A DNA stretch of 25,713 nt, taken from IMG/VR virus record IMGVR_UViG_3300029877_000014. One strand, 5' to 3'. Under the pieces are notes generated by a model, which did not search any database, had not been told where the DNA came from, and worked only from the letters and a program-made list of their open reading frames with translations. Of the stretch, positions 1 through 25,713 are shown piece by piece. The DNA comes from a virus. Lineage: Duplodnaviria; Heunggongvirae; Uroviricota; Caudoviricetes. Position 1 is the first letter of the stretch; each line of letters opens with the position of its first letter. The translations under genes and the position numbers were made by a program.

Positions 1-905
1 TACAGCGCCCATTTGTCCACATCCGCCGCACCAAGACGTTTCCCCATGCCGTAGCGCGGGTGGGTCAGCATATCCCACAGACACCAGGCCATGTTGTTGC
101 TGTATGCTGGTTTTAACGTTCCGTCCCAGATACCGCTGTATTGTCGCGTCTGCGGGTTATAGTTCGACGGCACCTGCAGAATGCGCCCGCGAAGATGATA
201 ATTACGGCTCACCTGCTGGCTGCCGAACTGCTCCGAGTCCACCTGTACGCCGACCAGTGCCGTGTTCGGGTAGCACTGTTTCACATCGATGATCTCGGTG
301 TATGACGACCAGAGCGTTTTGTTCTGCAGCTGGTCTGTGGTGCTGTCCGGCGTCATCCTGCGCATCCGGATATTGAACGGGCGCGGCGGCAGGTTATCCA
401 CCACCACCGAGGCCAGATACTGCGAGGTGGTTTTGCCCTTAATGGTGATGTCTTTTTCCGTCACCCAGCCACCGTTACGCTGTATCTGAACCAGCAGGCG
501 GACTTCCGACGGATTCCTGTCTCCCTTTGAGGTGGTTTCCACCAGTGCCTGTACACCGAAGGTAAAGCGCAGACGGTCGATGTTTGCCGACGTGATGGTC
601 CGGGTGATCGGCGTTTCATATTTCACTTCCGTACCCAGCACCGTCTCGGAACCGGAGGATTCAAATCCCTCCGGCGGTGACTGCTCCTGCTCACCTGCCC
701 GGAACACCACCGTGACGCCGGAGATATTGGTATTCCCCTCACTGTCCAGCACCGGCGTACTGTTCAGCAGCACGCTTTTTAATCCATCCACCGGACCTTC
801 AATCGGCCCTTCACTGATGGCGTCTATCACGCTCAGCATCTGGGATGATTTCAGGTTGTCCTTCGCTTCGCGCGGGATATGCCCCTTACTGCTGCCTTTA
901 CCCAT
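1..905 (-). CDS. J: Host specificity / central tail fibre protein J, N-terminal part only (about 301 codons; gene continues past the window start)
   Basis: Minus-strand ATG at 905 reads MGKGSSKGHIPREAKDNLKSSQ..., matching the lambda J N-terminus as I recall it; frame is open to position 1 (e.g. ...PRYGMGKRLGAADVDKWALY at the edge). Missing from the ORF track because there is no in-window stop. The plus-strand ORFs 104..292, 289..489 and 532..939 are antisense artefacts. Confidence 0.85.
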   Translation of the reverse strand, partial: MGKGSSKGHIPREAKDNLKSSQMLSVIDAISEGPIEGPVDGLKSVLLNSTPVLDSEGNTNISGVTVVFRAGEQEQSPPEGFESSGSETVLGTEVKYETPITRTITSANIDRLRFTFGVQALVETTSKGDRNPSEVRLLVQIQRNGGWVTEKDITIKGKTTSQYLASVVVDNLPPRPFNIRMRRMTPDSTTDQLQNKTLWSSYTEIIDVKQCYPNTALVGVQVDSEQFGSQQVSRNYHLRGRILQVPSNYNPQTRQYSGIWDGTLKPAYSNNMAWCLWDMLTHPRYGMGKRLGAADVDKWAL

Positions 906-965
906 TCCTCACGCTCCAGAAACGACAAAACCGCCCTGAGGCGGTTTCACACAAAACATTCTGCA

Positions 966-1613
966 TCAACGACCAATCACCACAACCTGACCACCATCTC
1001 CTTCATCTGCCGTGCTGATCTCCTGCGAAATCACCCGTGACCCCACGCGCATTTCACCGTACAGAACCGGCAGAACATTGCCCTGGGCAACCATGTTATC
1101 CAGTGAGGAGAAATAGGTGTTCTGTTTGCCGTTATCCGTTGTCTGTGTACGGGGAGTTCTGGCTTTCGGTGCCAGCATCTGCGCCACACCACCGAGCACC
1201 ATACTGGCCCCCGCACCATACATTCCTGTAATTGCGGCAGCCCCCAACCAACCTGCAGGGTTCCACCATGCCACCGCAATCAGCGCCGCCCCCAGCACAG
1301 CCTGAAAAAGACCGCCACTTTTGGCTCCCGCCAGACGCGGCACAATGTGGATCACGGCACCATTTGCCAGCGGTTCATTAAGACGGGCTGATAATTCAGT
1401 TTCACCTGCATCACGCCCGGCAATGCGTACCTGATACCAGCCGTCGCTCAGTTTCTGACGAAACGCCGGAAGCTGTGTGGTCAGCGCCCGGACTGCTTCG
1501 GCCCCCGTTTTCACACGCAGGTCGATGCGGCAGCCAAATCGTTGTAAATCCCCGTAAAGGCAGATTCGCGCCATGCCCGGTGACGCCAGAGGGAGTGTGT
1601 GCGTCGCTGCCAT
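966..1613 (-). CDS. I: Tail assembly protein I (lambda I-like)
   Basis: 215-aa ORF starting MAATHTLPLASPGMARICLYGDLQRFG... and ending ...EGDGGQVVVIGR, matching lambda gpI at both ends from memory; overlaps the 3' end of K. Confidence 0.85.
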   Translation of the reverse strand: MAATHTLPLASPGMARICLYGDLQRFGCRIDLRVKTGAEAVRALTTQLPAFRQKLSDGWYQVRIAGRDAGETELSARLNEPLANGAVIHIVPRLAGAKSGGLFQAVLGAALIAVAWWNPAGWLGAAAITGMYGAGASMVLGGVAQMLAPKARTPRTQTTDNGKQNTYFSSLDNMVAQGNVLPVLYGEMRVGSRVISQEISTADEGDGGQVVVIGR

Positions 1614-2254
1614 TTGTCGGTATACCTCTCTCGTTTACTCAGTTGTTCAGGAATATGGTGCAGCAGCTCGCCGTCACCACAGTAAATGGCGGCATGATTC
1701 GGCACCGATGAACCAAAACAGCACAGCAGCACATCACCCGGTTGTGCTGATGACAACGGCACCTGATACAGCCCTGTGGCCTCCAGATTATCCAGATAGA
1801 GATTCTGGTCGTTACGCCACCAGTCATCCTCACGATGAAAATCCGGCATCTCAATCCCCGCCAGATGGTAAGCGTCCCGGAACAGCGTGTAACAATCCGT
1901 CACCCCGTGCTCAAAGCGCCGCCCGGTAAGATGCGGCACACAGCGGAATTTATGAATCGCCCCCCGGCAGACCAGCCACCATGGCAAATCACTCTGCACC
2001 TGCAGCCGCCGGTCAGCCTCACTCAGCCAGGGCAGGCCACCGGGGTGGCTGTGGACCAGCGCCACAATCTCACCCTGCATCTCTGCCCGCAGCCAGTCCT
2101 CCGGCGACATCCGGAAATAATCCTCCGGCTCACCGGAGATATTCACGCAGGGAAAATATCTTTCCCCTTCCGACGTTCTCACCACGAAGCCGCACGACTC
2201 CGCTGGCGCACATCGCCGGGCGTGCGCCAGAATCGCTGATTCTGTCTCTGTCAT
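1511..2254 (-). CDS. K: Tail tip assembly protein K (JAB/MPN-like HSHP motif plus NlpC/P60-like region)
   Basis: 247-aa ORF with ...EIVALVHSHPGG... and a downstream Cys/His region; sits between L and I as in lambda. Confidence 0.75.
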   Translation of the reverse strand: MTETESAILAHARRCAPAESCGFVVRTSEGERYFPCVNISGEPEDYFRMSPEDWLRAEMQGEIVALVHSHPGGLPWLSEADRRLQVQSDLPWWLVCRGAIHKFRCVPHLTGRRFEHGVTDCYTLFRDAYHLAGIEMPDFHREDDWWRNDQNLYLDNLEATGLYQVPLSSAQPGDVLLCCFGSSVPNHAAIYCGDGELLHHIPEQLSKRERYTDKWQRRTHSLWRHRAWRESAFTGIYNDLAAASTCV

Positions 2255-2259
2255 GGGAT

Positions 2260-2958
2260 TTACTGCGAAAGTTTGTTAATGGAAAGGAAGCCGCCAAAGT
2301 TGCCGACATTATTGCGGAACTTACAGCCACTCAGGCATTTGCTGCATTTATCCTTCGTGATTTCGGATGTCGGCTGGTCATATTCATCCGCGACCGCCGG
2401 ACCGTGATAACCGCACTCATCACCGCGATAGGTCCAGGTGCAGGTATTAGCAAGCATGATGCGCCCCGGAAAAACAGCGCCGTCCGTTTCCGTCGGCGTG
2501 GACAGTACAAAGGAGGCACTGACCGCGCTCAGTTCGCTGCACTGCTCAATACGCCAGCGGCTGATCACCTCCTGCTCCGGATCGGCGTCACTGTTTCCGT
2601 TGACGAAGTTCACCGCATCCAGAAAACGGGCGTAAACCTTACGCCTGACCACCGTTCCGCCGACCAGACTCTGCAGGTCTTCCGCCATCCCGGTGACCAT
2701 GCCGTGCAGATTAGAGACTTTCAGCGTTGGCCTTGCACTGGCACCTTTGCCGTTCATCTCAAATCCACTCCCCTGAATGGGATAGGCCTGATACTGCCGA
2801 CTCTGCCAGGTGACAGACTCTCCTTTCTCGTTCTGCTCATTGCAGAAAAAGTAGCGATCCCCGCCTACCTCGGTCAGGTCGATTTCCCAGAGCACCACGC
2901 TGGCCGACTGCTCCGCACGAATGCATTCATTCAGCGTTTCCTGTTGTATGTCCTGCAT
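2260..2958 (-). CDS. L: Minor tail protein L
   Basis: 232-aa ORF, the same length as lambda gpL and in the same position; ATGA start/stop overlap with M at 2958. Confidence 0.8.
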   Translation of the reverse strand: MQDIQQETLNECIRAEQSASVVLWEIDLTEVGGDRYFFCNEQNEKGESVTWQSRQYQAYPIQGSGFEMNGKGASARPTLKVSNLHGMVTGMAEDLQSLVGGTVVRRKVYARFLDAVNFVNGNSDADPEQEVISRWRIEQCSELSAVSASFVLSTPTETDGAVFPGRIMLANTCTWTYRGDECGYHGPAVADEYDQPTSEITKDKCSKCLSGCKFRNNVGNFGGFLSINKLSQ

Positions 2959-3254
2959 CAGATCACCACTTCGTCAAACTGACACGAAAAATCGGTATAG
3001 GTGATATGTTCTGTCGCTGACCACGTTCGACACACCACTCTGATTTTTCTGTTAATACCAGGCGGGCGCCAAAAAAAAGATTTATAGCCTTCATGCCGGG
3101 CTAAAAATTTTTCAAATGAATCACGTTCATTCGCCTCAACTTTGAAATCACAGGTGAAAACGCGCAGAGAATGATTAAGTCCATTTGGACTTCGTTGCTC
3201 ATAACCATCGCCAAATCTTACAGTTTTTATCGATGGTTTATTTTCTGTTTTCAT
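2958..3254 (-). CDS. M: Minor tail protein M
   Basis: The ORF track starts at 3296, which is a GTG overlapping the tape-measure stop. The first ATG is at 3254 (MKTENKPSIKTVRFGDGYEQR...), preceded by GAGGATGGA, and resembles the lambda gpM N-terminus. Confidence 0.7.
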   Translation of the reverse strand: MKTENKPSIKTVRFGDGYEQRSPNGLNHSLRVFTCDFKVEANERDSFEKFLARHEGYKSFFWRPPGINRKIRVVCRTWSATEHITYTDFSCQFDEVVI

Positions 3255-3288
3255 TCCATCCTCTGGTAACCAGTGAAATTCTTCCGTA

Positions 3289-6200
3289 TTAGCCACTTAA
3301 CATTCCCCCATCACGTCGCATATTTAACAGATTGCCCTGCACCCGCTGATCAACCATCCCCATAAGTGCTTTTATTGCCTGAGGGCCAATCTCTCCATTC
3401 TGGCCGTCATTTTGAATAGTGATTTGGTATACAGGGGCATAGGTAATATCTCCGCCTCCATTACCACTTTTACTATTAATAGCTCTGACACCAAGAGAAC
3501 CATCGGATGTTCGTGTTAATGGCATAATGGCTTCCGGACCAGCCTCACCAAAAACACCAGCCCCTTTTGCAAAAGCAAAAAATTGCGGGGAATCATAAAT
3601 ACCGTTCGAATACGTGTTCAATGACGGAGACTCATAAACACCGCCCTTTGCATTCGGAATAAATTTACTAATAGCACTCCCGATAGTTCCTAAAATCCCC
3701 CCCGAAGAACTGTTACTAATGCTGTCGAAAATCCCAGTAATTGAAGCCTTTAATGCTATTCGACTAAGATCCGAAATCACGGAAGTAGCGAAAGAACGAA
3801 AATTTGCCTTGCCTGTCGTGACAAAATCACCCAGCGCATCGGTCATTCCATCAAACATCTGAGTCGTGGTTGATTTTATCTGCTCACTGATATCCTTAGT
3901 GTCATCCAGCCAGTTATTGAATCCCTGGGAGGCACCACTAACCCAGTCTCCTGCCTGAATATCGAGCTGCTCGTTTTTCTGTCTGACAATTTCTTTTTCT
4001 CGTTCCAGAGCATCATTCAGAGCCTGCATTTTCTCCTGAAAAACATGATTTGACATCCCACGGGATTTATCTGCATAGTCACGTTCAAGTTGCAGACGCT
4101 GATTGTTATATTCACGTTCAATCCGCAGTAATTCCTGCTGGCGTTGCTGATTTTTATCGCCAACCCCATAACCAGCAATCTGAATATCATACCCCTGTTG
4201 ACGATTATCAATCGAAGCCTGCAATAAATCACGCCATGCAGCTATTTCGGCGGATTCCTTGATTAGCCTGTTATTTTTTTCAATCGCAACATTTTTCTCC
4301 ATCAACGCGGTTATTTCTTCCCGGTGTAAGAGAAGCGATTTCTGATCCTGGGTTAATTTCGATGACGGTCGTGACTCCAGGTCGGCAATCTGCTGACGCC
4401 ACTTAACCAGTTCCTGTTCAGAGGAACTTAATTTAACGGTTAATTCAGTTTGTGAACTTAGTAACGCATTCTGTTGATTCAGATGATCAATCATTCGTTG
4501 GGCAGCATCATCCGAATAACCTTTCGCCTTTGGTTGCTTTGGATCTTTATAACGCTCATTTATTTGAGCGATAAAATTATTATATTCTTCCTTTGAATAC
4601 TGACTCTTTAGCTTTTCCAGTTTTGCAAGTTCACTAGCTCTCTGCTGCTCCCGGGTCTGATATTGTTTTGAAAAGGCATCTGCTCTCTGTCTGAGTTCAA
4701 TTCCTTCCTGTTGTCGCTTGTTGTAATCGTTTATTGATGAATTTAGGACGTCCTGAGCAATTTTTTCTGCTTGAAGTACGCCCAATTGCTGCTTTAATCG
4801 TGCCAGCCTTTTATTTTGAGCTCCGCCATCTCCAATGCCACCTAACCCGAAAACTCCGGGTCGGGTATTTTTTTCTATTTCATCAATTTGACGGAGAACA
4901 TCTGAGATTTTTTGATCAAGGGAGGCCTCACGGCCAATGTCCAGCATGGAATCCCATGCCCATTTTGCGGAGTCTGCGACAGCTTTCCATGCAGTCTCAA
5001 GATAACCAAGATTTTCTTTAATCTGGTTGGTGCGCTGGATCATTGAGGATGAGTATGCTTCTGTCGCAATGCGGGCGGCCTCCTGCTGGTTCCCTTCATC
5101 CTGTAGCGCCTTAATCTGGTTATAAGTCGCAATTGTCAGAAAATGGTACTGATCATTAAGTTTTGATATGGCACTGACAGGATCCTTTGCAATTTCATTG
5201 AAGTCATTAACCAGTTGTTCGGTTGATATTCCTGTTACTTCGCTCGTTTTTACTATCGCTGTCGTCACTTGCTCCAGCGAACTGCTCGCTACCTTTCCCG
5301 AACGCACAAGCTGGTTTAATACTGCCGCCGCAGCGCCAGTTGTCGAATCAGCCGCATTCCCGGCACGTTGAGCTATATCGGCCAATTGCCCGCTGGTTGT
5401 CCCCAACTGATTTCCGGTAAGAATAAGAGATTTATTAAATTCGTCCTGCTCCTGAGAGCCTTTATAGTAAGCCAGCCCTAAGACGCCAACGGCTGCTGCG
5501 GCCAGGGTAAAAGGATTAATTAATCCCAGCACATAAGAACCAACACCTTTGATCGCCGGGCCAATCCCACCGAACATATCTTTTAGCTGGCCGCCCTGCT
5601 GCATTAACACCATAAAAGGCGACTGACCAGTGGACAACCCAACAACAATATCCGTCATTTGTGCAGGCAACATGCGCATAGCAAAAGCCGTTTGTTTTGC
5701 CGACATTCCGGTTTTGCTTAATTGAGATTGAGTAACCTCAAGCTCACTCCGCATAGCACGAAGTTTTCCAGAAAGTTCCTCATACATTTCAGGAGAGAGC
5801 ATCCCCTTAGCTTTTGCTTCATTGAGCTGTTTCTGTTGTTCTACCAGACGATTAAAAGCAGTTCCGACAGGGTCAAGTTGAGCAATCAGACGTTGCAAAG
5901 CAGCAACCTGTTCATCATGCGCTTTTGCTGCTTCTCGCTCTGCCTGAGCCTCTCCGGTAAGCTCTCGCCGTGTTTCCTGTATTTTTCGGCTATAATTCTC
6001 AAACTGAGAACCATTTATTTTCCCGGATGCAAACGCAGCATTAAGTTCATCCTGCTGTTGTTCAAGATTTCTTAGCGCCGCAGCCAGAGGGTCGATCTTG
6101 TCCAGCATTCTTTGAAAGGCCTGAGCCTGCGCTTCCTGCTGGGCGGCAGCAAGTTTTCCGGCCTTCTCGGCTTCTCTCTGCGCTTGCGCAACCCCGCTCA

Positions 6201-6522
6201 ATTCCTCTGTGGTTTCATTAAGTTTACGGACAAGAAATTCATATTCTTCTTTATCAATAAGCCCTTTATCGAAAAATTTCTTTAATTCAGAATAGCGTCG
6301 ACCGACAGTATCAATTGCGGCACCAACTGGATCAATAGCTGCTTTTAATTTTGCGAGCGCGTTCTTCTCATCTTCTGTTGCCTTAGTCACTTTCCCTGCG
6401 CTATTTGCAGCAGTTTCCCCGGCCTGCGTCATTTTGACTAATGAGGAGGTCAGATTGTCAGCATTATTTTTTGCTCCAGTGCTATCAATAATTATTGCGA
6501 GACGCGAGGTTTGCTCTGCCAT
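3289..6522 (-). CDS. Tail tape measure protein (1077 aa)
   Basis: Very long, Ala/Gln/Glu-rich coiled-coil ORF with a glycine-rich hydrophobic segment, directly upstream of M/L/K/I/J. RBS GGAG precedes the ATG at 6522. Confidence 0.85.
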
Positions 6523-6542
6523 TTATTAAAACTCCAGACAAC

Positions 6543-6565
6543 AAAAAGCCCACCGAAGTGGGTTT
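6543..6565 (-). terminator. Intrinsic-terminator-like hairpin (CCCAC-UUCG-GUGGG followed by CUUUUU) between the GT-type gene and the tape measure gene
   Basis: Minus strand reads aaacccac ttcg gtgggc ttttt gttg; read directly from the sequence. Confidence 0.45.
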
Positions 6566-6685
6566 CAGGCGACATAATAGTAGATATAGCGATTACGAGG
6601 CCACGCAATGCTTTTCTCCAGGAGCATCATCGATTTAATTAAAGACACCATCACATCTCTGTAACAGAGTGTACGTAATTAACAA

Positions 6686-7006
6686 CTACACACACTGATC
6701 CTGAAAATACTGGTCATCCAGTGCAAAGATCACTGCTTCAAACTCATCGCGCTCAATCAATACCGGATGAGTGGCTAAATATTCATTTATCTCTGTCAGA
6801 GATAAAGGCAAAGGCACCCCGGTCATTCCAGCATAACGTCGGGCACGGGATATTACCGAATAGGCGTACAACAATTCCTTAAGCACCGGGTCTATTTCTG
6901 GTTCCGGTATCGGTGGCAACCTGAGTTTTTCTCGCTTCCATCTTGCCTTTTCCCCCCTTTCTCCCCCGAACTCCGATAACCACCGCTGGGCGGCTATGGC
7001 TTTTTT
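6686..7006 (-). CDS. T-like extension of the tail assembly chaperone, reached by a -1 frameshift (GT-type fusion product)
   Basis: The -1 frame is open from the slippery site (KKAIAAQRWLSEFGGERGEKARWKREKLRLPPIPEPEIDPV...) to the stop at 6686. The track reports only 6686..6919 because it begins at an internal TTG. Confidence 0.6.
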   Translation of the reverse strand, partial: KKAIAAQRWLSEFGGERGEKARWKREKLRLPPIPEPEIDPVLKELLYAYSVISRARRYAGMTGVPLPLSLTEINEYLATHPVLIERDEFEAVIFALDDQYFQDQCV

Positions 7007-14875: not shown

Positions 14876-16186
14876 TTAAATCCGAAGTGATGTGACTCTT
14901 CCGGTCGGTTTGACAATAGGGAATTGCTTAACGATGAAATAACCTCCGGCATCATTCGGGTGATCATTGCCAGATTTTTTATCAGGCTCCCCCTTCTCAT
15001 CCCAGACCTGTTGCTCCAGAGATTCGGCATATAACGGGCAACGCTTCACATTAACTTTATAGCGACGCTCACCATTGGCATTGCAGAACATTGCATTCAT
15101 TGAGTTAACGCGATCTTTTACTGGCGGGTTCGAGCTGTTCACCACAACGTTAAAACCAGCCTGCTTAAGCTGGGCTATATCCGTCGTACTTGCGTTACTT
15201 GATTTTCTGGAATCCCCGGAAGCATCTGGATAAATATAAATTTCCCTCACTTTCCGGTAATCATTCCCATCATACAGCCAGAAGCGTTCTTTAATGATGC
15301 GGATCATATCCGGCGTATCGTAGGCATTGATGATTTCAGTTACCGCACATGGAAGCCCCAAACGCAGCACATGGACGATTCCCGCCATCTTTCCAACGTT
15401 AAAATCCATCCCAATATAAATCGGCTCCCCTGGCTGCTCCACTTCTTCGCAATTATTCAGTTTCCGGTCAAACTGATGGTAAACAGTACCACTTGTCAGG
15501 TTAGTAAACTGTCCTCGCAGATAGGCTTTAATCAGCTCTGGAGGGTATGATTCAAGAAGCGAAGGAATGTAATCTGCTGGCAGGTTCTTTTCATTATCGA
15601 AAGTAGATGCCTGCACCAGACCATACAGTGAGGCCAGCTCTGTTTTTTCACGCACGGCTTTAACAAACTGCTCGTAGACAAATTTGAATCCTTCCGGCGT
15701 GGTTGTAACGTCAATACCGTTGCGAAGTCCATCAATCTTATAACGCATACGCGCAATTATCTTGCGCCACGCCGTTCTGGCTTTTTCCTTCGGCAAAATG
15801 TCCAGTTCATCCACCAACGCATTACCAATTTTGAAACCGACGATCGTTTGTGGCTTCTCCATCGATCTGCAGATAGTGGTTCCCCGATACTGGCGTCCGT
15901 AATAAAAGTGAACCTCTTTATTTCCCTCATTAATTTTTACGTTCAATCCCCAGTCAGCAGCAACTTCTTCCACTGTAGGGTAAAAAATATCGCGAATTTG
16001 GGGATACGTTGGCGCAAAATATCCCTGATTTATACCTGGATGCTCCCAAATCCCCTTGCATATGCCGCCACACCCAACCCATGTTTTGCCCGAGCCAAAA
16101 CCAGCAATATAGGCTTTAAATTTATGGGGCATTGAAAGAAATCGCGCCTGAGGCACATTAAGCGTCGGAGAGATCATCTTCATCAC
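14876..16186 (-). CDS. Terminase large subunit
   Basis: 436-aa ORF with a Walker A-like motif (AGFGSGKT) near the N-terminus and an acidic nuclease-type C-terminal half. Confidence 0.85.
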   Translation of the reverse strand: MMKMISPTLNVPQARFLSMPHKFKAYIAGFGSGKTWVGCGGICKGIWEHPGINQGYFAPTYPQIRDIFYPTVEEVAADWGLNVKINEGNKEVHFYYGRQYRGTTICRSMEKPQTIVGFKIGNALVDELDILPKEKARTAWRKIIARMRYKIDGLRNGIDVTTTPEGFKFVYEQFVKAVREKTELASLYGLVQASTFDNEKNLPADYIPSLLESYPPELIKAYLRGQFTNLTSGTVYHQFDRKLNNCEEVEQPGEPIYIGMDFNVGKMAGIVHVLRLGLPCAVTEIINAYDTPDMIRIIKERFWLYDGNDYRKVREIYIYPDASGDSRKSSNASTTDIAQLKQAGFNVVVNSSNPPVKDRVNSMNAMFCNANGERRYKVNVKRCPLYAESLEQQVWDEKGEPDKKSGNDHPNDAGGYFIVKQFPIVKPTGRVTSLRI

Positions 16187-18396: not shown

Positions 18397-19159
18397 GCAT
18401 GATCTCCACCATGCGCTGCGTCATCCGGACAAATCCATTTTCAATAGCCTGCTGATAATCAATGATCACCAGCGCCGACTCCTCGAAAAAACACTGAATT
18501 TCAGAGGGGGCGTGAGCGTAATAGTCCGCAATTCTGCTGAAATTAAACACCGTGTGACGTTCTGCCGCACACAGGAGGAATTTCTCAATATCAGGCTCAA
18601 GGGACGCCGAACGTATCCGGCTGATCAGCTCCTGAGTTTTCGTATCGTCGTACAGTTCACTGATATCCGGTTTACCGCCCGACGGCTCATAAACAGGCGT
18701 ATCAATTTTCGTCGTATACGGCTCCTCCTCATTTCCTGTACCGGGCAAAACATCCGTCAACAGTTCATCAATTTCTGTCGGGATGAAGCCTGTCAGGGAG
18801 ACATCAAAATCAGCATTGATTAGGTCCGACAGCTCCATCCGCAACAGATCTTCATCCCAGCCAGCATTCATCGGCAGGCGATTATCTGCCAGGCGGTACG
18901 CCTTTTTCTGCTCATCCGTCAGGCCAGACAGAACAATGACCGGAACAGAATCCATTTTGAGCATTTCAGCCGCCATAACACGACCGTGACCCGCAATAAT
19001 TTCGCCCTTTTCGTCAATCAGCACCGGATTAGTCCAGCCGAATTGCTTAATACTTTCTACCAGTTGTGCCACCTGCTCAGGGCTGTGCGTCCTGGCGTTG
19101 TGCGCATACGGTGACAATTCTTGTAATGGGCGATAGACTATCTTTAATTTCTCGCTCAT
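18368..19159 (-). CDS. ParB-like nuclease-domain protein (ParB/Srx N-terminal fold)
   Basis: 263-aa ORF with ...NPVLIDEKGEIIAGHGRVMAA..., the GxxR-type ParB N-terminal motif; acidic C-terminus. Confidence 0.75.
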   Translation of the reverse strand: MSEKLKIVYRPLQELSPYAHNARTHSPEQVAQLVESIKQFGWTNPVLIDEKGEIIAGHGRVMAAEMLKMDSVPVIVLSGLTDEQKKAYRLADNRLPMNAGWDEDLLRMELSDLINADFDVSLTGFIPTEIDELLTDVLPGTGNEEEPYTTKIDTPVYEPSGGKPDISELYDDTKTQELISRIRSASLEPDIEKFLLCAAERHTVFNFSRIADYYAHAPSEIQCFFEESALVIIDYQQAIENGFVRMTQRMVEIMHGGEEEEYA

Positions 19160-19296
19160 ACAGCCTTGCTTTATGAATAAAACGCACCCCAGCAGCCAGT
19201 GCTACTGGGGACGGAGGGGTTGCTGGTAAAGTTAGGTATTGGATCAATGAGTGAGTCAACATAATATTAAACTCACAATTATAAATCAGCCATATA

Positions 19297-20754
19297 TTAG
19301 GAGCGCCAAAAAAAACCTGAAAACAATATAATAACAGGATAAATTTCAAGGCGACCAAGAATCATAGCTATGCACATTAAACATTTTGCAATGTCATTAA
19401 GCACTCCGAATGACGATGCAGTAGCCCCAAAACCTAATCCCATATTATTAATACATGCAGCCACTGTTGCAAATGATGTAAGAAAATCATATCCCATACC
19501 ATTTAACACCAGTATAAAAAACACCGTGAAGAGAGTATAAAGAAAAAAGAAACTCCATACAGACCTCATTACACGATCTGTAACTATCTTCCCTCCTACA
19601 TTTACACTCAACAACGCTCTGGGATGAGAAAGCTGATTTATCTCGTGTTTGCTTTGTTTGAAAAGTATAAGAAATCGAAGTGACTTAATTCCACCACAAG
19701 TTGAACCTATACATCCCCCAAAGAAACTTGACAACAGCAAAAACACTATCGTGTGCGTGGGCCAACTTGCATAATCCTGCGTAGCTAAACCATTATCAGT
19801 GAGCATGGAGCTGGCAAGAAAAAACGAATGAATAAAACTTCCATGCAAGTCATACATACCTATATGCCAGACCTGGAAAGAGGTAACAATGATCACCCCT
19901 AAGGCTATTAACAGAAAGAAACGAAGTTCAATATCTCTGATTAAAGGTTTTATCGTTTTCCTGCTAATAACAATATACCAAAGAGTGAAGTTGAAAGCCG
20001 ATAGCAGGGAAAAAGAACCAGCCACCAGCTCAACCAAATAGTTATTAAAATATCCGATACTCTCGCTATGAGTTGAGAAACCACCAAGCGAAACTGTGGA
20101 AATCCCGTGACAAATAGCATCAAACAAAGGCATTCCTGCAAGTCTATAACAGACAATACAAGCAATACCTAATAAAGAATAAGTTATCCACAGTGTCCGT
20201 GACGTATCGGCCAGGCGGGGAGTGAGTTTGTCATCCTTAAATGGCCCCGGCATTTCTGACTGATAAAGCTTTGCACCACCAATACCCAATAATGGCAATA
20301 CAGCAACCGCCAGAACAATAACTCCTAAACCACCTATAAAATTTAACTGTGACCGATAGTACAAATATGCCCGAGGTAATGAACTAACATCATCAATTAC
20401 AGTTGCTCCTGTTGTTGTTATTCCAGAAACCCCTTCAAACAGAGCATCAATGAACGTTAAATTAAGTTCTGAGTCAATCCATAAAGGGAATGCACTAATA
20501 ACAGAAAACAAAATCCAAAACATTACAATTATAATAAACCCATCACGGGTACGTAATTGAATGCCAGATTTCTTAGTTGTATACCACGCTCCGCCACCAA
20601 TGCAAAAAAATATAACGAAAGTTATAAAGAAAACGAACAGGCTTTTTTCTTTATAAAACAATGCTACAACCATTGGTGGCAACATTGAAAGACTATAGAG
20701 CCAAACCAGGAACCCACACATATGAGTAACAACTCTTACATGAGATGTATTCAT
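19297..20754 (-). CDS. trkG: TrkH-family potassium uptake membrane protein TrkG
   Basis: Polytopic membrane protein starting MNTSHVRVVTHMCGFLVWLYSL... from the first ATG at 20754 (the track start at 20772 is TTG); matches E. coli TrkG as I recall it. Visibly AT-rich relative to flanking phage genes. Confidence 0.85.
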   Translation of the reverse strand: MNTSHVRVVTHMCGFLVWLYSLSMLPPMVVALFYKEKSLFVFFITFVIFFCIGGGAWYTTKKSGIQLRTRDGFIIIVMFWILFSVISAFPLWIDSELNLTFIDALFEGVSGITTTGATVIDDVSSLPRAYLYYRSQLNFIGGLGVIVLAVAVLPLLGIGGAKLYQSEMPGPFKDDKLTPRLADTSRTLWITYSLLGIACIVCYRLAGMPLFDAICHGISTVSLGGFSTHSESIGYFNNYLVELVAGSFSLLSAFNFTLWYIVISRKTIKPLIRDIELRFFLLIALGVIIVTSFQVWHIGMYDLHGSFIHSFFLASSMLTDNGLATQDYASWPTHTIVFLLLSSFFGGCIGSTCGGIKSLRFLILFKQSKHEINQLSHPRALLSVNVGGKIVTDRVMRSVWSFFFLYTLFTVFFILVLNGMGYDFLTSFATVAACINNMGLGFGATASSFGVLNDIAKCLMCIAMILGRLEIYPVIILFSGFFWRS

Positions 20755-20891
20755 ATCTAAATATTCTTTCAATTATAACCACCTTGCTGCAATATTATGA
20801 TTATACTGTATAAAATTTAACTCCTCTTAGATCTTACTTCACTGTTCCTTATGAAACAATCATCAAAATGAATCATATTGTAGTTAAGATT

Positions 20892-21356
20892 TTACTTTAA
20901 ACACTGCTCGGTTATGTATTGCTGAGCACCTTCAAGTTGGGCCTGCATCATTACCAGTCGTTCCCGGAGGGTGAAATAATCCCGTTCAGCGGTGTCTGCC
21001 AGTCGGGGGGAGGCTGCATTATCCACGCCGGAGGCGGTGGTGGCTTCACGCACTGACTGACAGACTGCTTTGATGTGCAACCGACGACGACCAGCGGCAA
21101 CATCATCACGCAGAACATCATTTTCAGCTTTCGCATCAGCTAACTCCTTCGTGTATTTTGCATCGAGCGCAGCAACATCACGCTGACGCATCTGCATGTC
21201 AGTAATTGCCGCGTTCGCCAGCTTCAGTTCTCTGGCATTTTTGTCGCGCTGTTCTTTGTAGGCGATGGCGTTATCACGGTAATGATTAACAGCCCATGAC
21301 AGGCAGACGACGATGCAGATAACCAGAGCGGAGATAATCGCGGTTACTCTGTTCAT
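20892..21356 (-). CDS. Rz: Inner-membrane spanin Rz
   Basis: Start [21 protein letters not shown]... at 21356 forms an ATGA overlap with the endolysin stop; N-terminal TM helix then coiled coil. Confidence 0.8.
20951..21136 (-). CDS. Rz1: Outer-membrane lipoprotein spanin Rz1, embedded in Rz in the +1 frame
   Basis: 61-aa ORF entirely inside Rz: signal peptide with lipobox ...LVVVGC, then a proline-rich mature part ([16 protein letters not shown]). Confidence 0.75.
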
Positions 21357-21850
21357 TGCTGACCCCACAAACAGATTTCACGCTCAATCTCACGACGAGT
21401 CATGAGACCTTTCCATTGCTTACCGCCAGCATATGTCCAGCGACGTAGCTGATCACATGCGCCTTTGATATCGCCCTGGTTTATTTTGCGAAGAAGCGTC
21501 GATGTTCTGAAATTGCCAGCACCCACGTTGTAAACGAATGAGTAAAGAGCGCCGCGCGTTGTTTCCGGTATATCGACTTTGATGTACGGGTTAATTTGTC
21601 TGGCGACCGTGGCAAGGTCTTTATTCAGGAGGGCTTTGCATTCTGCTTCGGTATACGTTTTACCGGGAATGATGTCTTTTCCGGTGTGTCCGTGACATAC
21701 AGTCCATACACCAACGATATCTTTATATGGTATGTAGCTGACACCTTCCAGACCATCGTTACCACTTGGGCCAGTGATTAACACTGATGCTATAGCAATT
21801 GCTCCGCCACCAATAGCAGCAGCAACGGCTTTTCGTAATGATGGAGGCAT
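21353..21850 (-). CDS. R: SAR endolysin (lysozyme with N-terminal signal-anchor-release domain)
   Basis: [39 protein letters not shown]... : weakly hydrophobic Gly/Ala-rich N-terminus followed by a lysozyme catalytic region; matches phage 21 R as I recall it. Confidence 0.85.
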
Positions 21851-22065
21851 TATTCACCTCTCGCAGCCTTGCGCTTATCTTCTTTAATCTTGAAATAAAG
21901 GTTTGTCAGGTACGTCAGCAGGCCAAATACCAGACTACCCAGCACACCGATTGCAGCCCACTGTGACGGAGTTACTCTATCGAGCAACTGTAAAAACCAG
22001 TAGCCAGCACTGCCTGCGGAGGTGCCATAGGCGACACCCGTTGTTAACTTATCCATGGATTTCAT
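21850..22065 (-). CDS. S: Pinholin S with dual-start motif (71-aa antiholin / 68-aa holin)
   Basis: [28 protein letters not shown]... from the ATG at 22065 with RBS GAGGTGGGGG; Met1-Lys-Ser-Met4 dual start; two TM segments. The track's start at 22158 is an upstream extension. Confidence 0.8.
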
Positions 22066-22336
22066 AACCCCCACCTCGCAGATGCGGGCGCTGTGTAATG
22101 GAAACAAAAAATGGCCACCAGCGGCCCGTAAAAAACACCCCGTCAAAAGCACCGGCATCCGCAGATGCCCTTTGCGTGGCGTTATTTGATGCGCGCCAGA
22201 TGTGGCGCAAAGAAATGAAATAAGACTTATCGAAAATTAAGGTCAATTTGATGATTTAAACCACTTCTGAAGCTTAGTAGTATGAACATGTCCCCAGAAG
22301 GGGGCCAATACTTATTATTCTTCATGGACTTTGTCC

Positions 22337-22369
22337 CGCGGTCTTAATCCGACGACCGCGCTACTTTTT
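22337..22369 (+). terminator. Plus-strand hairpin CGCGGUC...GACCGCG followed by CUAC-UUUUU (weaker terminator-like unit R1)
   Basis: Preceded by the mini-palindrome GGACTTTGTCCC; read from sequence. The T-run is 4 nt away from the stem. Confidence 0.3.
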
Positions 22370-22406
22370 CACCCTCTCGCAAATTGCTATCTAAAGGACT
22401 TTGTCC

Positions 22407-22439
22407 CACGAGTATTCCAGGATGCTCGTGTCTTTTTTT
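22407..22439 (+). terminator. Plus-strand intrinsic terminator R2 (CACGAG...CUCGUG followed by U-CUUUUUUU)
   Basis: 6-bp GC-containing stem extendable by A-T/wobble pairs, followed by a run of seven T; also preceded by GGACTTTGTCCC. Confidence 0.5.
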
Positions 22440-22455
22440 GTCCTGAGGAAGGAAT

Positions 22456-22479
22456 AAAAAAAACCGCCAAATATGGCGG
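22456..22479 (-). terminator. Minus-strand intrinsic terminator (CCGCCA-UAUU-UGGCGG followed by UUUUUUUU) downstream of the tRNA genes
   Basis: Perfect 6-bp stem with 4-nt loop and eight T on the minus strand; lies back to back with plus-strand terminator R2. Confidence 0.55.
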
Positions 22480-22839
22480 TTGGTCACTGCATGAGATAAA
22501 TCATTTTATTGTAATAAGAATCGAGGTGTCGGGTGCCTCCCGAAATATCCATCTCTACAACAGATATTGTGATTCCCCGCCAAACCACTATCTAAACCAC
22601 CCTCGCACTGAGGAACACCTCTGCGGTGCTTTTACAACACCAGAATGATGCATCACCGACCCTGCCAGGAAATACAAAATCTCCACCGATAATGCACCAT
22701 TCTGCTGCCGTAAAAAAATTAGCACTGTGACTACAACCGACCTCCAATCATAGTCAGAGAACGGATTGTCTTTTTAAAACAACCCACCCCACGTAATAAA
22801 AAATACGCCAGTGCCACGATACAATAAGGCTTGTTTCTC

Positions 22840-22914
<75 letters not shown>

Positions 22915-22917
22915 ATA

Positions 22918-22993
<76 letters not shown>

Positions 22994-23056
22994 ATTGGTT
23001 CTTCAGGGGAGCGATATCACCGAGCAAAGAAGAGTTCCCCCTCAGAACCGTTTTCG

Positions 23057-23084
23057 ATAATACGATTTAATATTCCAATCGCAA
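23057..23084 (-). promoter_or_regulatory. Candidate sigma70 promoter for the tRNA pair (-35 TTGCGA, 16-nt spacer, -10 TATTAT), with an AT-rich upstream tract
   Basis: Minus-strand hexamers read from sequence, about 60 nt upstream of the tRNA-Thr 5' end; 23101-23220 upstream is strongly AT-rich (UP-element-like). Identified by eye. Confidence 0.35.
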
Positions 23085-23230
23085 CAACACTTTGCGTCAA
23101 GTTATGTAAATTTATTTATATGTTTTTATTTTATGTGAATAATTCACTTTCACTTAAAATATATACAACAACATATAAATAAATTTATTTTGAAGGCGAT
23201 GATTAAATGTCGTTTCTGATATCACACCAC

Positions 23231-23260
23231 AGAAACAACAAAACCCGCTCGATGGCGGGT
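23231..23260 (-). terminator. Terminator-like hairpin (ACCCGCC-AUCGA-GCGGGUU followed by UUGUUGUUUCU) about 90 nt downstream of the Q stop; candidate tR'
   Basis: GC-rich stem and T-rich tail on the minus strand; position is consistent with the end of a short PR'-initiated transcript. Confidence 0.4.
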
Positions 23261-23346
23261 TCTATTAAAGTTTAATTGCGCTTGATTCGCCTCGCGATAC
23301 AGCTTTGCGAAGCGTAGCAAAATTGAAGCAGTTTATGCGTAAAAAA

Positions 23347-23889
23347 TCAAGCCGTTTTTTGAGCGAATGATTCTCGCATGGGAATGTATAGCGCATACTC
23401 AGCAACGGCCAACCAATTAGCAATTCGCTTTTCGCATGTGCTAAAACACCACTCTGGGTGTGCATCATTTAGCAATTCAGCCATTTTGCGTTTGGTCATC
23501 CCCCGCCCCTCATACCGTTGCCGAAGGACGCTAATCAATCCTGGATGCTCTGCCAGCACCTCACTTATGACCCGATCAATACATAACGCCTCTGCATCAG
23601 TACAATGCGCCAGCCAGCTCTTTTGCTTACCGTTAATCATATCCCGCAAAAAAGCCTCAAGTTCAGACTTGTTCAGACCTGCTTTTTTCATCCTCCGGAG
23701 CGCCTCGTTAATTGCCGTTTTTGTCAGCTTTTTAGAGGCCAACAACTGGTTGAACATATTCCCCGTCTTACCGCCGCCAATATACGACCAGCGCCCCCAC
23801 ATGCGCAGTTTTCCCTGAATCCAGACACTTTCCAGCGTGGTGAGACGAAGGTGTTCCCCGCTTTTGCCTGTATTTGTTGGGTAAATCAT
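23347..23889 (-). CDS. Q: Late-gene antitermination protein Q
   Basis: Start at ATG 23889 (MIYPTNTGKSGEHLRLTTLESVWIQGKLRMWGRW...) with ATGA overlap to the upstream gene; the track's start at 24009 is an upstream extension. Sits immediately before the tRNA/lysis region; Cys/His-containing C-terminal part. Confidence 0.7.
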   Translation of the reverse strand: MIYPTNTGKSGEHLRLTTLESVWIQGKLRMWGRWSYIGGGKTGNMFNQLLASKKLTKTAINEALRRMKKAGLNKSELEAFLRDMINGKQKSWLAHCTDAEALCIDRVISEVLAEHPGLISVLRQRYEGRGMTKRKMAELLNDAHPEWCFSTCEKRIANWLAVAEYALYIPMRESFAQKTA

Positions 23890-24176
23890 AAATAACCTTC
23901 CTTTCTCCAGATTTCTTGCGTGCGAAAAACACCTTCTGCATGCATCAGGCGTAAATCTTCTTTGGTGTAATCGCTTGTTTTTACCCGCCCGTCGATTAAA
24001 TCGTGGCATGAGCTACAGGCAATCGCCGCCTGCATATCGTGTGGTTTTGTCGCTGTTCCGCACGTTCCCGCCAGTCGGTAATGCGCCAGCACAGACGTTT
24101 CCGGATCGTGATTGCAGTAGCCAAGAATTCTGACGGTGCACATCCGCCCCCGCGCCGCTTTACGTAAATCCACCAT
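23886..24176 (-). CDS. NinG/YbcO-like zinc-binding protein (DUF1364-type)
   Basis: 96-aa ORF with two Cys pairs (CTVRILGYCNHDPE ... CSSCHDLIDGR), resembling DLP12 YbcO as I recall it; translationally coupled on both sides. Confidence 0.55.
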   Translation of the reverse strand: MVDLRKAARGRMCTVRILGYCNHDPETSVLAHYRLAGTCGTATKPHDMQAAIACSSCHDLIDGRVKTSDYTKEDLRLMHAEGVFRTQEIWRKEGYL

Positions 24177-24775
24177 TACGCAAACTCCAGCAGCTGCGCG
24201 GCCACATTTTCGACTTGTTCCGGAGAGGAAAATTTACGGAACAGAATCCAGTTCCACAGCACATTCAGAACAGATTTATAAACCTGCTGAAACTCGGTTT
24301 CGTCCATATTCGCAAAAGCGATAGATTTTGCCCGACGCCCGCGGCTACCGTCCGGATAAAAATGTTCGGTGTAAAATCCAGCCTGAATGGTTACCCACTC
24401 GCGAAAAGCCTCAAACGACTTTAGCAATGCCGTATCCCGGGTTCTGCGTGTCGCAACTGTATTCAGATATTGCTCTGCGGCATCACTCAGGGCTGGCGTG
24501 TGTTCCCGACCAACTGATTCGCACAGGTAATCAACGAAACCAGACAGCAGTTCTCGTTCGCGAGGCGTGATCGCCCCACCGACCGGAGTCCAGTAATCGA
24601 ATCCCAGTTGCAGGAGTTTGAAAAAACGCTTGTGGAATGCGTAGTTACGCACACGCTTAAAGTCTGCGTGTATCCACTCGCCTATTTTGATTTGATGCAG
24701 AAAATCACAACTCTCCGGCGTCGCCGGGAGAAGTAATCCGGAAGAGGTTTGTTTGACCAGTTGTATATGCGCCAT
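24176..24775 (-). CDS. Nin-region protein (DUF1367-like)
   Basis: 199-aa ORF directly upstream of the YbcO-like gene. Family assignment is from memory of nin-region proteins and is uncertain. Confidence 0.45.
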   Translation of the reverse strand: MAHIQLVKQTSSGLLLPATPESCDFLHQIKIGEWIHADFKRVRNYAFHKRFFKLLQLGFDYWTPVGGAITPRERELLSGFVDYLCESVGREHTPALSDAAEQYLNTVATRRTRDTALLKSFEAFREWVTIQAGFYTEHFYPDGSRGRRAKSIAFANMDETEFQQVYKSVLNVLWNWILFRKFSSPEQVENVAAQLLEFA

Positions 24776-25047
24776 TTCTTAATCTCTCGATGGCGCAGCG
24801 CAGCAGATGCCAGTTGTTCAGGCTGACGTATGAAGTATAAATAAACTGGCTCCAGTGTAAAGCCCCACCTTAATGGAATAAAAACCAAAAAACAGATTGC
24901 TGGGATACAAACAACGCTTATTATTAAAAGCGGTTAAACAAATTAAATTTTAATGTTATGCAAATCTGCCAGATCACCATAATATCTCATTTGAAAACCG
25001 CTGAAATAACAACCCTATCAGGGTTAATCATATTAAGGTGAGTAAAT

Positions 25048-25134
25048 ATGGAAAACAACAAATCTGCACATTACGTTCCTTTTTTATCTATAATACTTTT
25101 TGTATTTTGTTGTGTATGGGCGGTATTTTTATAA
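25048..25134 (+). CDS. Small hydrophobic peptide, 28 aa (MENNKSAHYVPFLSIILFVFCCVWAVFL), on the opposite strand to all neighbours
   Basis: ATG at 25048 preceded by AAGGTGAG at 7-nt spacing; single predicted TM helix; stop TAA at 25132-25134 followed immediately by a perfect hairpin. Below the track's length cutoff. Confidence 0.4.
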   Translation: MENNKSAHYVPFLSIILFVFCCVWAVFL

Positions 25135-25150
25135 AACACACCCACAAATA

Positions 25151-25178
25151 AATCAAACCCGCTACAGCGGGTTTGATT
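25151..25178. terminator. Bidirectional terminator-like perfect palindrome (12-bp stem AATCAAACCCGC / GCGGGTTTGATT, loop TACA) between convergent genes
   Basis: Read from sequence; flanked by T/A-rich sequence on both strands. Lies between the peptide stop (25134) and the 102-aa gene stop (25189). Confidence 0.5.
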
Positions 25179-25188
25179 TATATAGTTG

Positions 25189-25497
25189 TTATACGGAAAC
25201 TGGCACACGAGCAGGCAATGGATAGTGAGCCCAGTTATTAGCATTTAAAGCTCTTACGCCATCAGCATAAACTTGTGTGTTTCCATCTAATGATTTTAAA
25301 GTTACTACAATAGTTACAGGTAAAGGCTCCATTAAGGCCGGTTCATTCGCTCTCAACGTTGTTTTAGCCTGAAGAGCCCAGTTACCCGAAGTAATTCCTT
25401 TATTAAATGCCTTGCGATGAATTTTTACTGGTGACCACTTTCCACCATGCTCAATTTGAGCTCTCTCATATCCAGATTGACCGTTTTCTCCTTCCAT
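25189..25497 (-). CDS. Hypothetical protein, about 102 aa, AT-rich gene
   Basis: ATG at 25497 with RBS AAGGAAAAG (the track's start at 25503 is GTG). The same frame stays open upstream to a TGA at 25660-25662 without any ATG/GTG/TTG, so the real start is uncertain. No recognisable motifs. Confidence 0.4.
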   Translation of the reverse strand: MEGENGQSGYERAQIEHGGKWSPVKIHRKAFNKGITSGNWALQAKTTLRANEPALMEPLPVTIVVTLKSLDGNTQVYADGVRALNANNWAHYPLPARVPVSV

Positions 25498-25713
25498 AGG
25501 CACTTTTCCTTTTATAGTATTATTCTCAATTAAGCCAAAACTTAGCTCTACGTTCGCGCGAACATATTCACTGCCGGCATTAGGGTTCAGTGGTGGTGCA
25601 TATGCAGCAGTAATGGCTTTGTTGAATAAATCGAACTTTTGCTGAGTTGAAGGATCAGATCACGCATCCTCCCGACAACACAGACCATTCCGTGGCAAAG
25701 CAAAAGTTCAGAA

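What the first reader, a model, noticed from the sequence alone, without database searches (positions are those of the whole stretch)
25189..25713. AT-rich 102-aa gene convergent with the peptide gene, with a start-less in-frame upstream extension at the window edge
The minus-strand gene 25189..25497 is visibly more AT-rich than the phage core and has no recognisable motifs. Its frame stays open for another 54 codons upstream (SDPSTQQKFDLFNKAITAAYAPPLNPNAGSEYVRANVELSFGLIENNTIKGKVP, protein-like) until a TGA at 25660-25662, with no start codon in that stretch. Another frame is open from the window edge to about 25657. This looks like a larger gene broken by a frameshift or nonsense mutation, or a two-gene accessory cassette cut by the window. 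Together with the convergent peptide gene it forms a moron-style insertion in the nin region, where lambdoid phages often carry accessory functions including defence or exclusion genes.
Basis: partly seen in the sequence, partly recalled or inferred. Interest (0 to 1): 0.55.

Follow-up and report, generated by a model that had tools for sequence, protein, structure and literature searches.

The report
IS-truncated remnant of defence protease IetS
The "102-aa gene" is the leftover tail of a known prophage anti-phage protease gene (ietS, called iteS by NCBI) that was cut off by an IS903-type insertion sequence, so it is an ordinary broken gene and not a new one.

Summary
The ORF and its start-less in-frame extension are real, but they are not a separate gene. 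Window 18780-25614 is 100% identical to a Rac-like E. coli prophage in which this position holds the 3' end of a 754-aa gene annotated iteS (S8 family anti-phage peptidase, IetS in the literature). There an AAA+ ATPase gene, iteA/ietA, lies just upstream. Identity stops exactly after base 25614. From 25615 to the window end (99 nt) the sequence is the terminal inverted repeat and transposase start of a 1,056-bp IS903-group (IS5 family) element. The window therefore keeps only IetS codons 614-754, and the 102-aa ORF is residues 653-754. The catalytic triad (D273, H303, S505) is missing. The break lies inside a strand of the C-terminal beta-domain, and the fragment models poorly on its own. The "other open frame" is the transposase start. 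The neighbouring 28-codon peptide ORF belongs to the conserved prophage backbone, not to the cargo. What lies beyond the IS cannot be seen. Ordinary and already known.

The parts
25189..25614 (-). Native 3' remnant of iteS/ietS: codons 614-754 (141 codons, 25192-25614) plus the stop codon 25189-25191. It is part of the C-terminal beta-domain of the S8 protease, with no catalytic residues.
   Evidence: 100% nucleotide identity to the 3' end of annotated iteS in E. coli strain 144 and many others, ending exactly at 25614. PADLOC IetS PDLC02197 positions 606-748 of 749, E 1e-59. NCBIfam NF042956 positions 604-747 of 747, E 5.6e-63. phrog_3964 positions 620-775 of 779. The break falls in phase between codons 613 and 614.
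25189..25497 (-). The 102-aa ORF that gene callers report. It equals IetS residues 653-754, starting at the internal Met653.
   Evidence: V651 and P652 are invariant, and conservation runs straight through this position in 38 homologues. A chance AAGGA lies about 9 nt upstream, within the K-G-K codons (sequence). The same 102-aa product is called wherever iteS is broken shortly upstream.
25498..25614 (-). 39 in-frame codons upstream of the ATG (ITAAYAPPLNPNAGSEYVRANVELSFGLIENNTIKGKVP). These are genuine IetS residues 614-652.
25606..25614 (.). The 9 bp (AGCAGTAAT) abutting the IS. This is the expected target-site duplication if the event was a simple insertion; the second copy would lie beyond the window.
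   Evidence: An identical IS copy in strain ET776 is flanked by a 9-bp duplication, GGCAGTAAT. The inference cannot be checked here.
25615..25713 (+). Left end (99 nt) of an IS903-group, IS5-family insertion sequence. The terminal inverted repeat GGCTTTGTTGAATAAAT is at 25615-25631. The transposase frame starts at TTG 25647 (322-aa annotation) or GTG 25692 (307-aa annotation). The window ends inside the element.
   Evidence: 99 of 99 identical to 1,056-bp copies bounded by 17-nt perfect inverted repeats. Thousands of matches are annotated 'IS5-like element IS903/IS903B family transposase'.
25615..25662 (-). 15 IS-derived codons (SDPSTQQKFDLFNKA) plus the TGA at 25660-25662. They merely extend the iteS frame by chance.
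   Evidence: for the frame translation; for the junction.
25148..25181 (.). 15-bp-stem hairpin between the stop of iteS and the stop of the convergent 28-codon ORF. It is a probable bidirectional terminator and marks the boundary between the conserved backbone and the variable cargo.
   Evidence: for the terminator scan. Matches from genomes with other cargo end at about 25135-25173.

Best explanation
The region is the 3' stump of the prophage-borne defence gene ietS (NCBI name iteS). ietS encodes the subtilisin-type (S8) protease of the two-gene IetAS system, in which IetA is an AAA+ ATPase. An IS903-group insertion sequence landed between codons 613 and 614. Only codons 614-754 remain joined to the downstream prophage backbone.

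The stump lacks the whole catalytic domain and the first two strands of its own beta-domain, so it is almost certainly non-functional. The protease, and therefore IetAS defence, is inactivated in this prophage copy. The 102-aa 'gene' appears only because an internal Met653 with a chance Shine-Dalgarno-like AAGGA follows the break. The start-less extension is the remaining IetS codons plus 15 codons of read-through into the IS. The frame open to the window edge is the transposase start.

Shown: the identity of the stump, the exact breakpoint, the identity of the IS end, the absence of the catalytic residues, and the intact architecture in relatives. Inferred: loss of function, and that the window ends where it does because a short-read contig stopped in the repeat. 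Unknown: whether the 5' part of ietS and ietA survive on the far side of the IS.
For: (1) Window 18780-25614 equals strain-144 prophage positions 1-6835 at 100%. Under it lies iteS, 754 aa, with iteA upstream.
(2) The alignment shows identity ending exactly after 25614.
(3) 25615 onwards is 99/99 identical to 1,056-bp IS copies with 17-nt inverted repeats and, in two of them, 9-bp duplications. The break coincides to the base with the IS terminus.
(4) The profiles place the ORF at the extreme C-terminus of IetS: PADLOC 648-748/749, NCBIfam 648-747/747, PHROG 675-775/779. The intact protein scores 1043 bits against the 900-bit cut-off of the IteS equivalog.
(5) The Pfam S8 domain covers residues 268-544. 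The invariant residues D273, H303, N402 and S505 are all upstream of the break.
(6) The AlphaFold model of the full protein (pTM 0.85) shows a beta-domain at about 572-740. The break sits inside strand 611-618, and Met653 follows five of its strands. The 141-residue fragment alone gives pLDDT 52.7 and pTM 0.40 with the same alignment.
(7) All 120 listed homologues are about 708-771 aa and none is free-standing.
(8) No promoter-like site lies upstream of the stump in the visible sequence.
(9) The same 102-aa product is called in many assemblies where iteS is broken by other lesions: W519*, Y557*, W591*, a 1-bp deletion, IS1 insertions and a deletion.
(10) The literature describes IetS-type proteases as the toxic partner and IetA as the antitoxin, so losing the protease is tolerated (PMC13069673; PMC5006074).
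Against: The far side of the IS is not in the window. The exact junction was not found in 5,426 complete E. coli genomes, in IMG/VR, in the GTDB species representatives or in the JGI metagenomes. The state of ietA and the 5' part of ietS is therefore unknown. No expression data exist, so a residual role for the stump is not formally excluded. A low AlphaFold score for an isolated fragment is only indirect evidence that it does not fold.
Confidence: 0.93

Rival explanations
1. This is a variant of the main explanation, not a contradiction of it. The IS is not a simple insertion but the scar of an IS-mediated deletion or rearrangement, so the 5' part of ietS and ietA are gone or relocated rather than sitting just beyond the IS.
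For: 5 of 7 sampled copies of this IS in complete E. coli genomes lack a 9-bp duplication and join unrelated genes, for example a chbC fragment on one side and treA on the other. Other broken alleles include an IS1-associated deletion (L004) and a large deletion (L007).
Against: Two sampled copies are simple insertions with duplications. In 6 of 7 other broken alleles iteA is intact. Nothing in the window bears on this directly.
Confidence: 0.4
2. The 102-aa ORF is a genuine, independently expressed small protein: a free C-terminal domain of IetS with a regulatory or decoy role.
For: It has an ATG with an AAGGA about 9 nt upstream. The region is among the most conserved parts of IetS. Gene callers report the product in 140 blocks of the collection.
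Against: It begins in the middle of a beta-domain, after five strands. The fragment models poorly alone. There are no free-standing homologues among the 120 best hits. Every recorded occurrence that was examined sits downstream of a lesion in iteS. There is no promoter-like site upstream. In 76 of 78 complete genomes the gene is one uninterrupted 754-aa ORF.
Confidence: 0.03
3. One reading: the gene is split by a frameshift, a nonsense mutation or a sequencing error near 25655-25665.
For: Such lesions do exist in other strains' iteS: three nonsense mutations and one 1-bp deletion.
Against: In this window, homology to iteS ends abruptly at 25614. The sequence from 25615 on is 99/99 identical to an IS end, and 25655-25665 lies inside the IS.
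Confidence: 0.01
4. The junction is an assembly chimera at a contig end and not a biological insertion.
For: The window ends after exactly 99 nt of a multi-copy repeat and begins inside the repeat-prone tail gene J. That is typical of a short-read contig.
Against: The switch occurs precisely at the first base of the IS inverted repeat. That is expected for transposition and not for a random mis-join. Repeat-bounded contigs normally end this way at true insertions.
Confidence: 0.03

Closest known systems
IetAS (ietA AAA+ ATPase plus ietS S8 serine protease). It was described as a toxin-antitoxin pair on pTiC58 (Yamamoto et al. 2009) and as an anti-phage system (Gao et al. 2020); both are as cited in PMC13069673. 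NCBI names the proteins IteA and IteS (NF042959, NF042956).
   Same: The stump is 100% identical in DNA to the last 426 bases (141 codons plus the stop) of annotated iteS genes. It aligns to the C-terminal end of every IetS profile tried. Intact relatives have the canonical ietA-ietS overlapping gene pair.
   Different: Here only 19% of the protease gene is present. The catalytic domain is missing and ietA is not in the window. This is a pseudogene remnant, not a working system.
SgiAT of Salmonella Genomic Island 1 (PMC5006074)
   Same: It is a homologous ATPase/subtilase pair in enterobacteria. In it the protease was shown to be toxic and the ATPase protective. This explains why disrupting the protease gene is tolerated.
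   Different: It has a different host element (an integrative mobilisable island, not a prophage) and is intact. SgiT has only about 36% identity to pTiC58 IetS.
IS903 / IS903B / IS102 group of the IS5 family
   Same: Terminal inverted repeat GGCTTTGTTGAATAAAT, transposase N-terminus ...VAKQKF..., 1,056-1,057 bp elements and 9-bp target duplications in identical copies.
   Different: Only the first 99 nt are visible. These do not discriminate between named isoforms, because both the 1,056-bp and the 1,057-bp copies match 99/99.
Subtilases with a C-terminal beta-jelly-roll or P-domain (Tk-SP 3afg, KP-43 1wmd, SubHal 5fax, furin/PCSK9, fervidolysin 1r6v)
   Same: The full-length IetS model aligns with them over 496-586 columns, that is beyond the catalytic core. 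The stump corresponds to part of such an accessory beta-domain.
   Different: Sequence identity is only 11-18%. IetS also has a roughly 250-residue N-terminal region that these lack. The role of the IetS C-terminal domain has not been tested.

Membership tests
IetS / IteS anti-phage S8 peptidase | Whole-protein match to the NCBIfam equivalog NF042956 above its curated cut-off (900 bits) | tested here: not met
   The stump scores 213 bits (141 aa) and the ORF 142 bits (102 aa), matching only profile positions 604-747 and 648-747. The intact allele in strain 144 scores 1043 bits. So this is a fragment of a member, not a member.
IetS / IteS anti-phage S8 peptidase | S8 catalytic domain with the Asp-His-Ser triad | tested here: not met
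   Pfam PF00082 covers residues 268-544 of the intact protein and gives no hit on the fragment. The invariant residues D273, H303 and S505 lie upstream of codon 614.
IetS / IteS anti-phage S8 peptidase | Sequence continuity with a bona fide ietS gene | tested here: met
   100% identity over 25189-25614 to annotated iteS in many genomes.
IetAS two-gene system | Adjacent upstream ietA (AAA+ ATPase) gene | not testable with these tools
   ietA would lie beyond the IS and beyond the window edge. It is present in intact relatives (PADLOC IetA E 8.9e-143, NCBIfam IteA 526.6 bits against a 510-bit cut-off). No ietA sequence occurs anywhere in the window.
IetAS two-gene system | Protection against phage, and protease toxicity neutralised by the ATPase | not testable with these tools
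   Experimental properties, known only from the literature for homologues.
IS903 group, IS5 family | Terminal inverted repeat GGCTTTGTTGAATAAAT at the element end | tested here: met
   25615-25631, identical to the inverted repeats of complete 1,056-bp copies.
IS903 group, IS5 family | DDE transposase gene of about 307-322 aa | tested here: inconclusive
   Only the first 22 codons (from TTG 25647) or 7 codons (from GTG 25692) are in the window. They are identical to those of annotated IS5-family transposases WP_000654811.1 and WP_001118645.1.
IS903 group, IS5 family | 9-bp target-site duplication and a second inverted repeat | not testable with these tools
   The right end lies outside the window, and the junction is not found in any collection.

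The most novel reading that the evidence does not exclude
The many independent lesions in ietS with ietA left perfectly intact might reflect selection against the protease rather than neutral decay. The lesions are three nonsense mutations, a 1-bp deletion, two IS1 events and this IS903 event. The selection could come from an autoimmunity or toxicity cost in Rac-like prophages. It would leave an orphan IetA ATPase that could serve as an anti-addiction or anti-defence factor against incoming IetAS-bearing elements. A weaker version is that the conserved C-terminal stump is made and interferes with related proteases.
Probability: 0.06. Interest if true: 0.4.

Novelty: already known. Interest (0 to 1): 0.1.

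Why it matters
It has little importance as a discovery, because it is a known defence gene broken by a known insertion sequence. It has practical value in three ways. The 102-aa 'hypothetical protein' called in many E. coli assemblies should be annotated as an ietS pseudogene fragment. Defence-system inventories should score this prophage copy as IetAS-inactive. The locus also illustrates a variable-cargo (defence/toxin) site in Rac/Qin-like prophages, between the DUF977 gene and DUF1367/DUF968.

Tried and rejected
(1) I looked for the source, or for the same insertion allele, to see beyond the window edge. A megablast of the junction against 5,426 complete E. coli genomes found none. Exact-pattern scans of IMG/VR, the GTDB representatives and the JGI metagenomes found none. 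An exact-product look-up of the 102-aa ORF returned other lesions but not this junction among the 7 places shown. The 104-aa GTG-start product is not on record.

(2) I suspected that the IS end lay 8 bases further out, because one copy matched from 25607. The extra bases proved to be a similar target duplication and not IS sequence.

(3) I tested whether this IS has a strict target motif (...GCAGTAAT). Flanks of 7 further copies vary, and the similarity came from picking the best-extending BLAST hits, so I dropped the idea.

(4) A literature search for 'IteS' found nothing, because the published name is IetS/IetAS. Gao 2020 and Yamamoto 2009 are not held in the library, so they are cited only through PMC13069673.

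(5) An Rfam scan of 24700-25713 gave only sub-threshold chance hits on the terminator hairpin.

(6) I looked for a K-12 name for the 28-codon ORF. The region is absent from K-12 Qin, and neither Pfam, NCBIfam nor PHROGs gives a hit.

(7) There is no solved structure of an IetS. Only the generic subtilase core matches by sequence.

Full report
**What is in the sequence.**
The minus-strand ORF 25189..25497 (102 aa) exists. Its GC content is 0.415 against 0.474 for the window. One correction: a GTG lies two codons upstream of the ATG, so the ORF listing reports a 104-aa ORF.

**Identification.**
A megablast of 24780-25713 against 5,426 complete E. coli genomes gave 100% identity over 24780-25614 in many chromosomes. 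The gene under the match is annotated 'iteS: S8 family anti-phage peptidase IteS'. The last ~100 bases instead matched thousands of IS5-family / IS903-type elements.

In E. coli strain 144 the intact locus reads: DUF977 gene, iteA (384 aa, AAA+ ATPase), iteS (754 aa, overlapping iteA), a ~410-bp intergenic region, DUF1367, DUF1364, the DUF1133/Q-like gene, tRNAs, the lysis genes and trkG. This is a Rac-like lambdoid prophage. Other copies also carry recE, kilR, sieB and ydaS/T/U/V. Window 18780-25614 equals this locus at 100%. The whole window from base 1, inside tail gene J, is collinear with the same prophage at 99.7-99.9%.

**The breakpoint.**
A pairwise alignment shows perfect identity with iteS up to 25614 and none afterwards. 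From 25615 the window reads GGCTTTGTTGAATAAAT…. In strain ET776 an identical sequence is the left end of a 1,056-bp element. That element is bounded by 17-nt perfect inverted repeats and a 9-bp target duplication, and it carries an 'IS5 family transposase'. The 99 visible bases are 99/99 identical to six of seven sampled copies. The switch from iteS to IS therefore coincides to the base with the IS terminus. That is the signature of transposition.

In protein terms the break is in phase between codons 613 and 614. The window keeps residues 614-754, and the 102-aa ORF is residues 653-754. The frame 'open to the window edge' is the transposase start on the plus strand. Identical copies annotate it from TTG 25647 or from GTG 25692.

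**Family tests.**
- The intact protein matches PADLOC IetS (E 8e-301) and the NCBIfam IteS equivalog (1043 bits, cut-off 900).
- The partner matches IetA/IteA.
- The stump and the ORF match only the last ~100-145 positions of these profiles and of phrog_3964.
- Pfam's S8 domain spans residues 268-544 and is absent from the stump.
- In an alignment of 38 homologues at 50-99% identity, D273, H303, N402 and S505 are invariant. All lie upstream of the break.

NCBI's 'Ite' is the literature's 'Iet'. 'IteS' finds no papers and 'IetAS' finds 47.

**Can the stump stand alone?**
All 120 best homologues are about 708-771 aa with 94-100% query coverage, and none is a free C-terminal piece. An AlphaFold model of the full protein (pTM 0.85) shows a beta-rich C-terminal domain at about 572-740. 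The break lies inside strand 611-618, after two strands have been lost, and Met653 comes after five strands. Folded alone with the same alignment, the 141-residue stump reaches only pLDDT 52.7 and pTM 0.40. In the full-length context most of its residues (611-650 and 671-740) score about 73-94, with only the 651-670 loop near 51.

The best structural neighbours of the full model are subtilases with a C-terminal beta-jelly-roll or P-domain: Tk-SP, KP-43, SubHal, furin/PCSK9 and fervidolysin. No promoter-like site lies upstream of the stump in the visible IS sequence. The AAGGA before the ATG is simply the K-G-K codons of IetS. My conclusion is that this is a non-functional remnant.

**Biology of the intact system (from papers).**
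IetAS was first described as a plasmid-stabilising toxin-antitoxin pair, with the serine protease as toxin and the ATPase as antitoxin. It was later described as an anti-phage system that needs the protease activity, and its mechanism is still unknown (PMC13069673, citing Yamamoto 2009 and Gao 2020). The SGI1 homologue SgiAT was shown experimentally to behave this way in E. coli (PMC5006074). In E. coli, ietAS is noted as prophage-located and gives limited protection alone (bioRxiv 10.1101/2022.08.21.504612). Disrupting the toxic partner is the tolerated way for such a module to decay.

**Population context.**
78 of 5,426 complete E. coli genomes carry this iteS, all at full length and 76 annotated intact. 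The IS allele is therefore a rare derived state.

The exact 102-aa product is nevertheless on record in 140 blocks of the assembly collection. The seven places examined carry different lesions: W519*, Y557*, W591*, a 1-bp deletion in codon 632, an IS1 insertion near codon 620, an IS1-associated deletion, and a large deletion. iteA is intact (99.7-100% identical, full length) in six of the seven. This look-up can only find lesions shortly upstream of Met653, so the clustering of positions is an ascertainment effect.

**The neighbouring peptide ORF and the 'moron' idea.**
The intergenic region 24790-25185 includes the 28-codon ORF 25048-25134 (MENNKSAHYVPFLSIILFVFCCVWAVFL, Shine-Dalgarno AAGGTG). 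It occurs in 1,176 genomes, far more than the 78 with iteS. Matches from genomes with other cargo end at about 25135-25173, at the 15-bp-stem hairpin 25148-25181. Beyond that point different genomes carry different cargo:
- hok plus an ATP-dependent nuclease and a Dcm methylase;
- hok plus a nucleoid-associated protein;
- hokD;
- a deletion reaching recE.

So iteAS (GC 0.40) is one of several alternative cargoes at a variable site. The peptide ORF belongs to the conserved flank. The ORF keeps its length, frame and stop in copies only 68-86% identical at the protein level, with synonymous changes.

**What cannot be decided.**
The window ends 99 nt into the IS. The junction was found in none of the collections searched. 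Five of seven sampled copies of this IS lack a target duplication and join unrelated genes. An IS-mediated deletion or rearrangement that removed the 5' part of ietS and ietA is therefore a live alternative to a simple insertion. Either way the protease gene is destroyed. I infer, without proof, that the window is a whole short-read contig bounded by repeats: tail gene J on the left and the IS on the right.

**Verdict.**
It is a pseudogene fragment of a known defence/toxin gene, created by a known IS. The proposed lesion type and the grouping with the peptide gene were not.

Noticed in passing
window 25048-25134 (+), hairpin 25148-25181: A 28-codon hydrophobic ORF (MENNKSAHYVPFLSIILFVFCCVWAVFL) with a good Shine-Dalgarno (AAGGTG) and a strong terminator hairpin. 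Length, frame and stop are conserved in copies 68-86% identical, with synonymous changes. It is present in about 1,176 of 5,426 complete E. coli genomes yet unannotated in RefSeq, and it has no Pfam, NCBIfam or PHROG hit. It is probably a real small membrane protein of Rac/Qin-like prophages, of unknown function.
   Followed up: partly
window ~25135-25614 and the equivalent slot in L001, L012-L015: The slot between the DUF977 gene and the conserved intergenic region next to DUF1367/DUF968 is a variable-cargo site in Rac/Qin-like prophages. It holds iteAS, or hok plus an ATP-dependent nuclease and Dcm, or hok plus a nucleoid-associated protein and a hypothetical gene, or hokD, or a deletion.
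   Followed up: partly
L004-L010 (iteS region): At least seven other independent inactivating lesions occur in iteS (three nonsense mutations, one 1-bp deletion, two IS1 events, one deletion). iteA is intact (99.7-100% identical) in six of the seven. Ascertainment is biased, because the look-up by the 102-aa product only finds lesions just upstream of Met653.
   Followed up: partly
L002, L003, L017-L021: Five of seven sampled copies of the 1,056-bp IS903-group element in complete E. coli genomes lack a 9-bp target duplication and join unrelated genes. This indicates frequent IS-mediated rearrangement.
   Followed up: partly
IetS residues 651-670 (window ~25444-25503, minus strand): Inside the C-terminal beta-domain there is a strongly conserved stretch (V651, P652, G661, E663, Q666 and G670 are invariant) that AlphaFold models with low confidence (pLDDT ~51). 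It may be a flexible functional loop, for instance a partner-binding or processing site. It was not investigated.
   Followed up: no
NCBI annotation of L001: NCBI's gene names iteA/iteS (NF042959, NF042956) transpose the published names ietA/ietS. Text searches for 'IteS' miss the whole literature.
   Followed up: yes
window ~14960-15025: This is the only break in collinearity with the strain-144 prophage: a ~64-nt stretch in the terminase large-subunit region that does not align. It was not examined.
   Followed up: no
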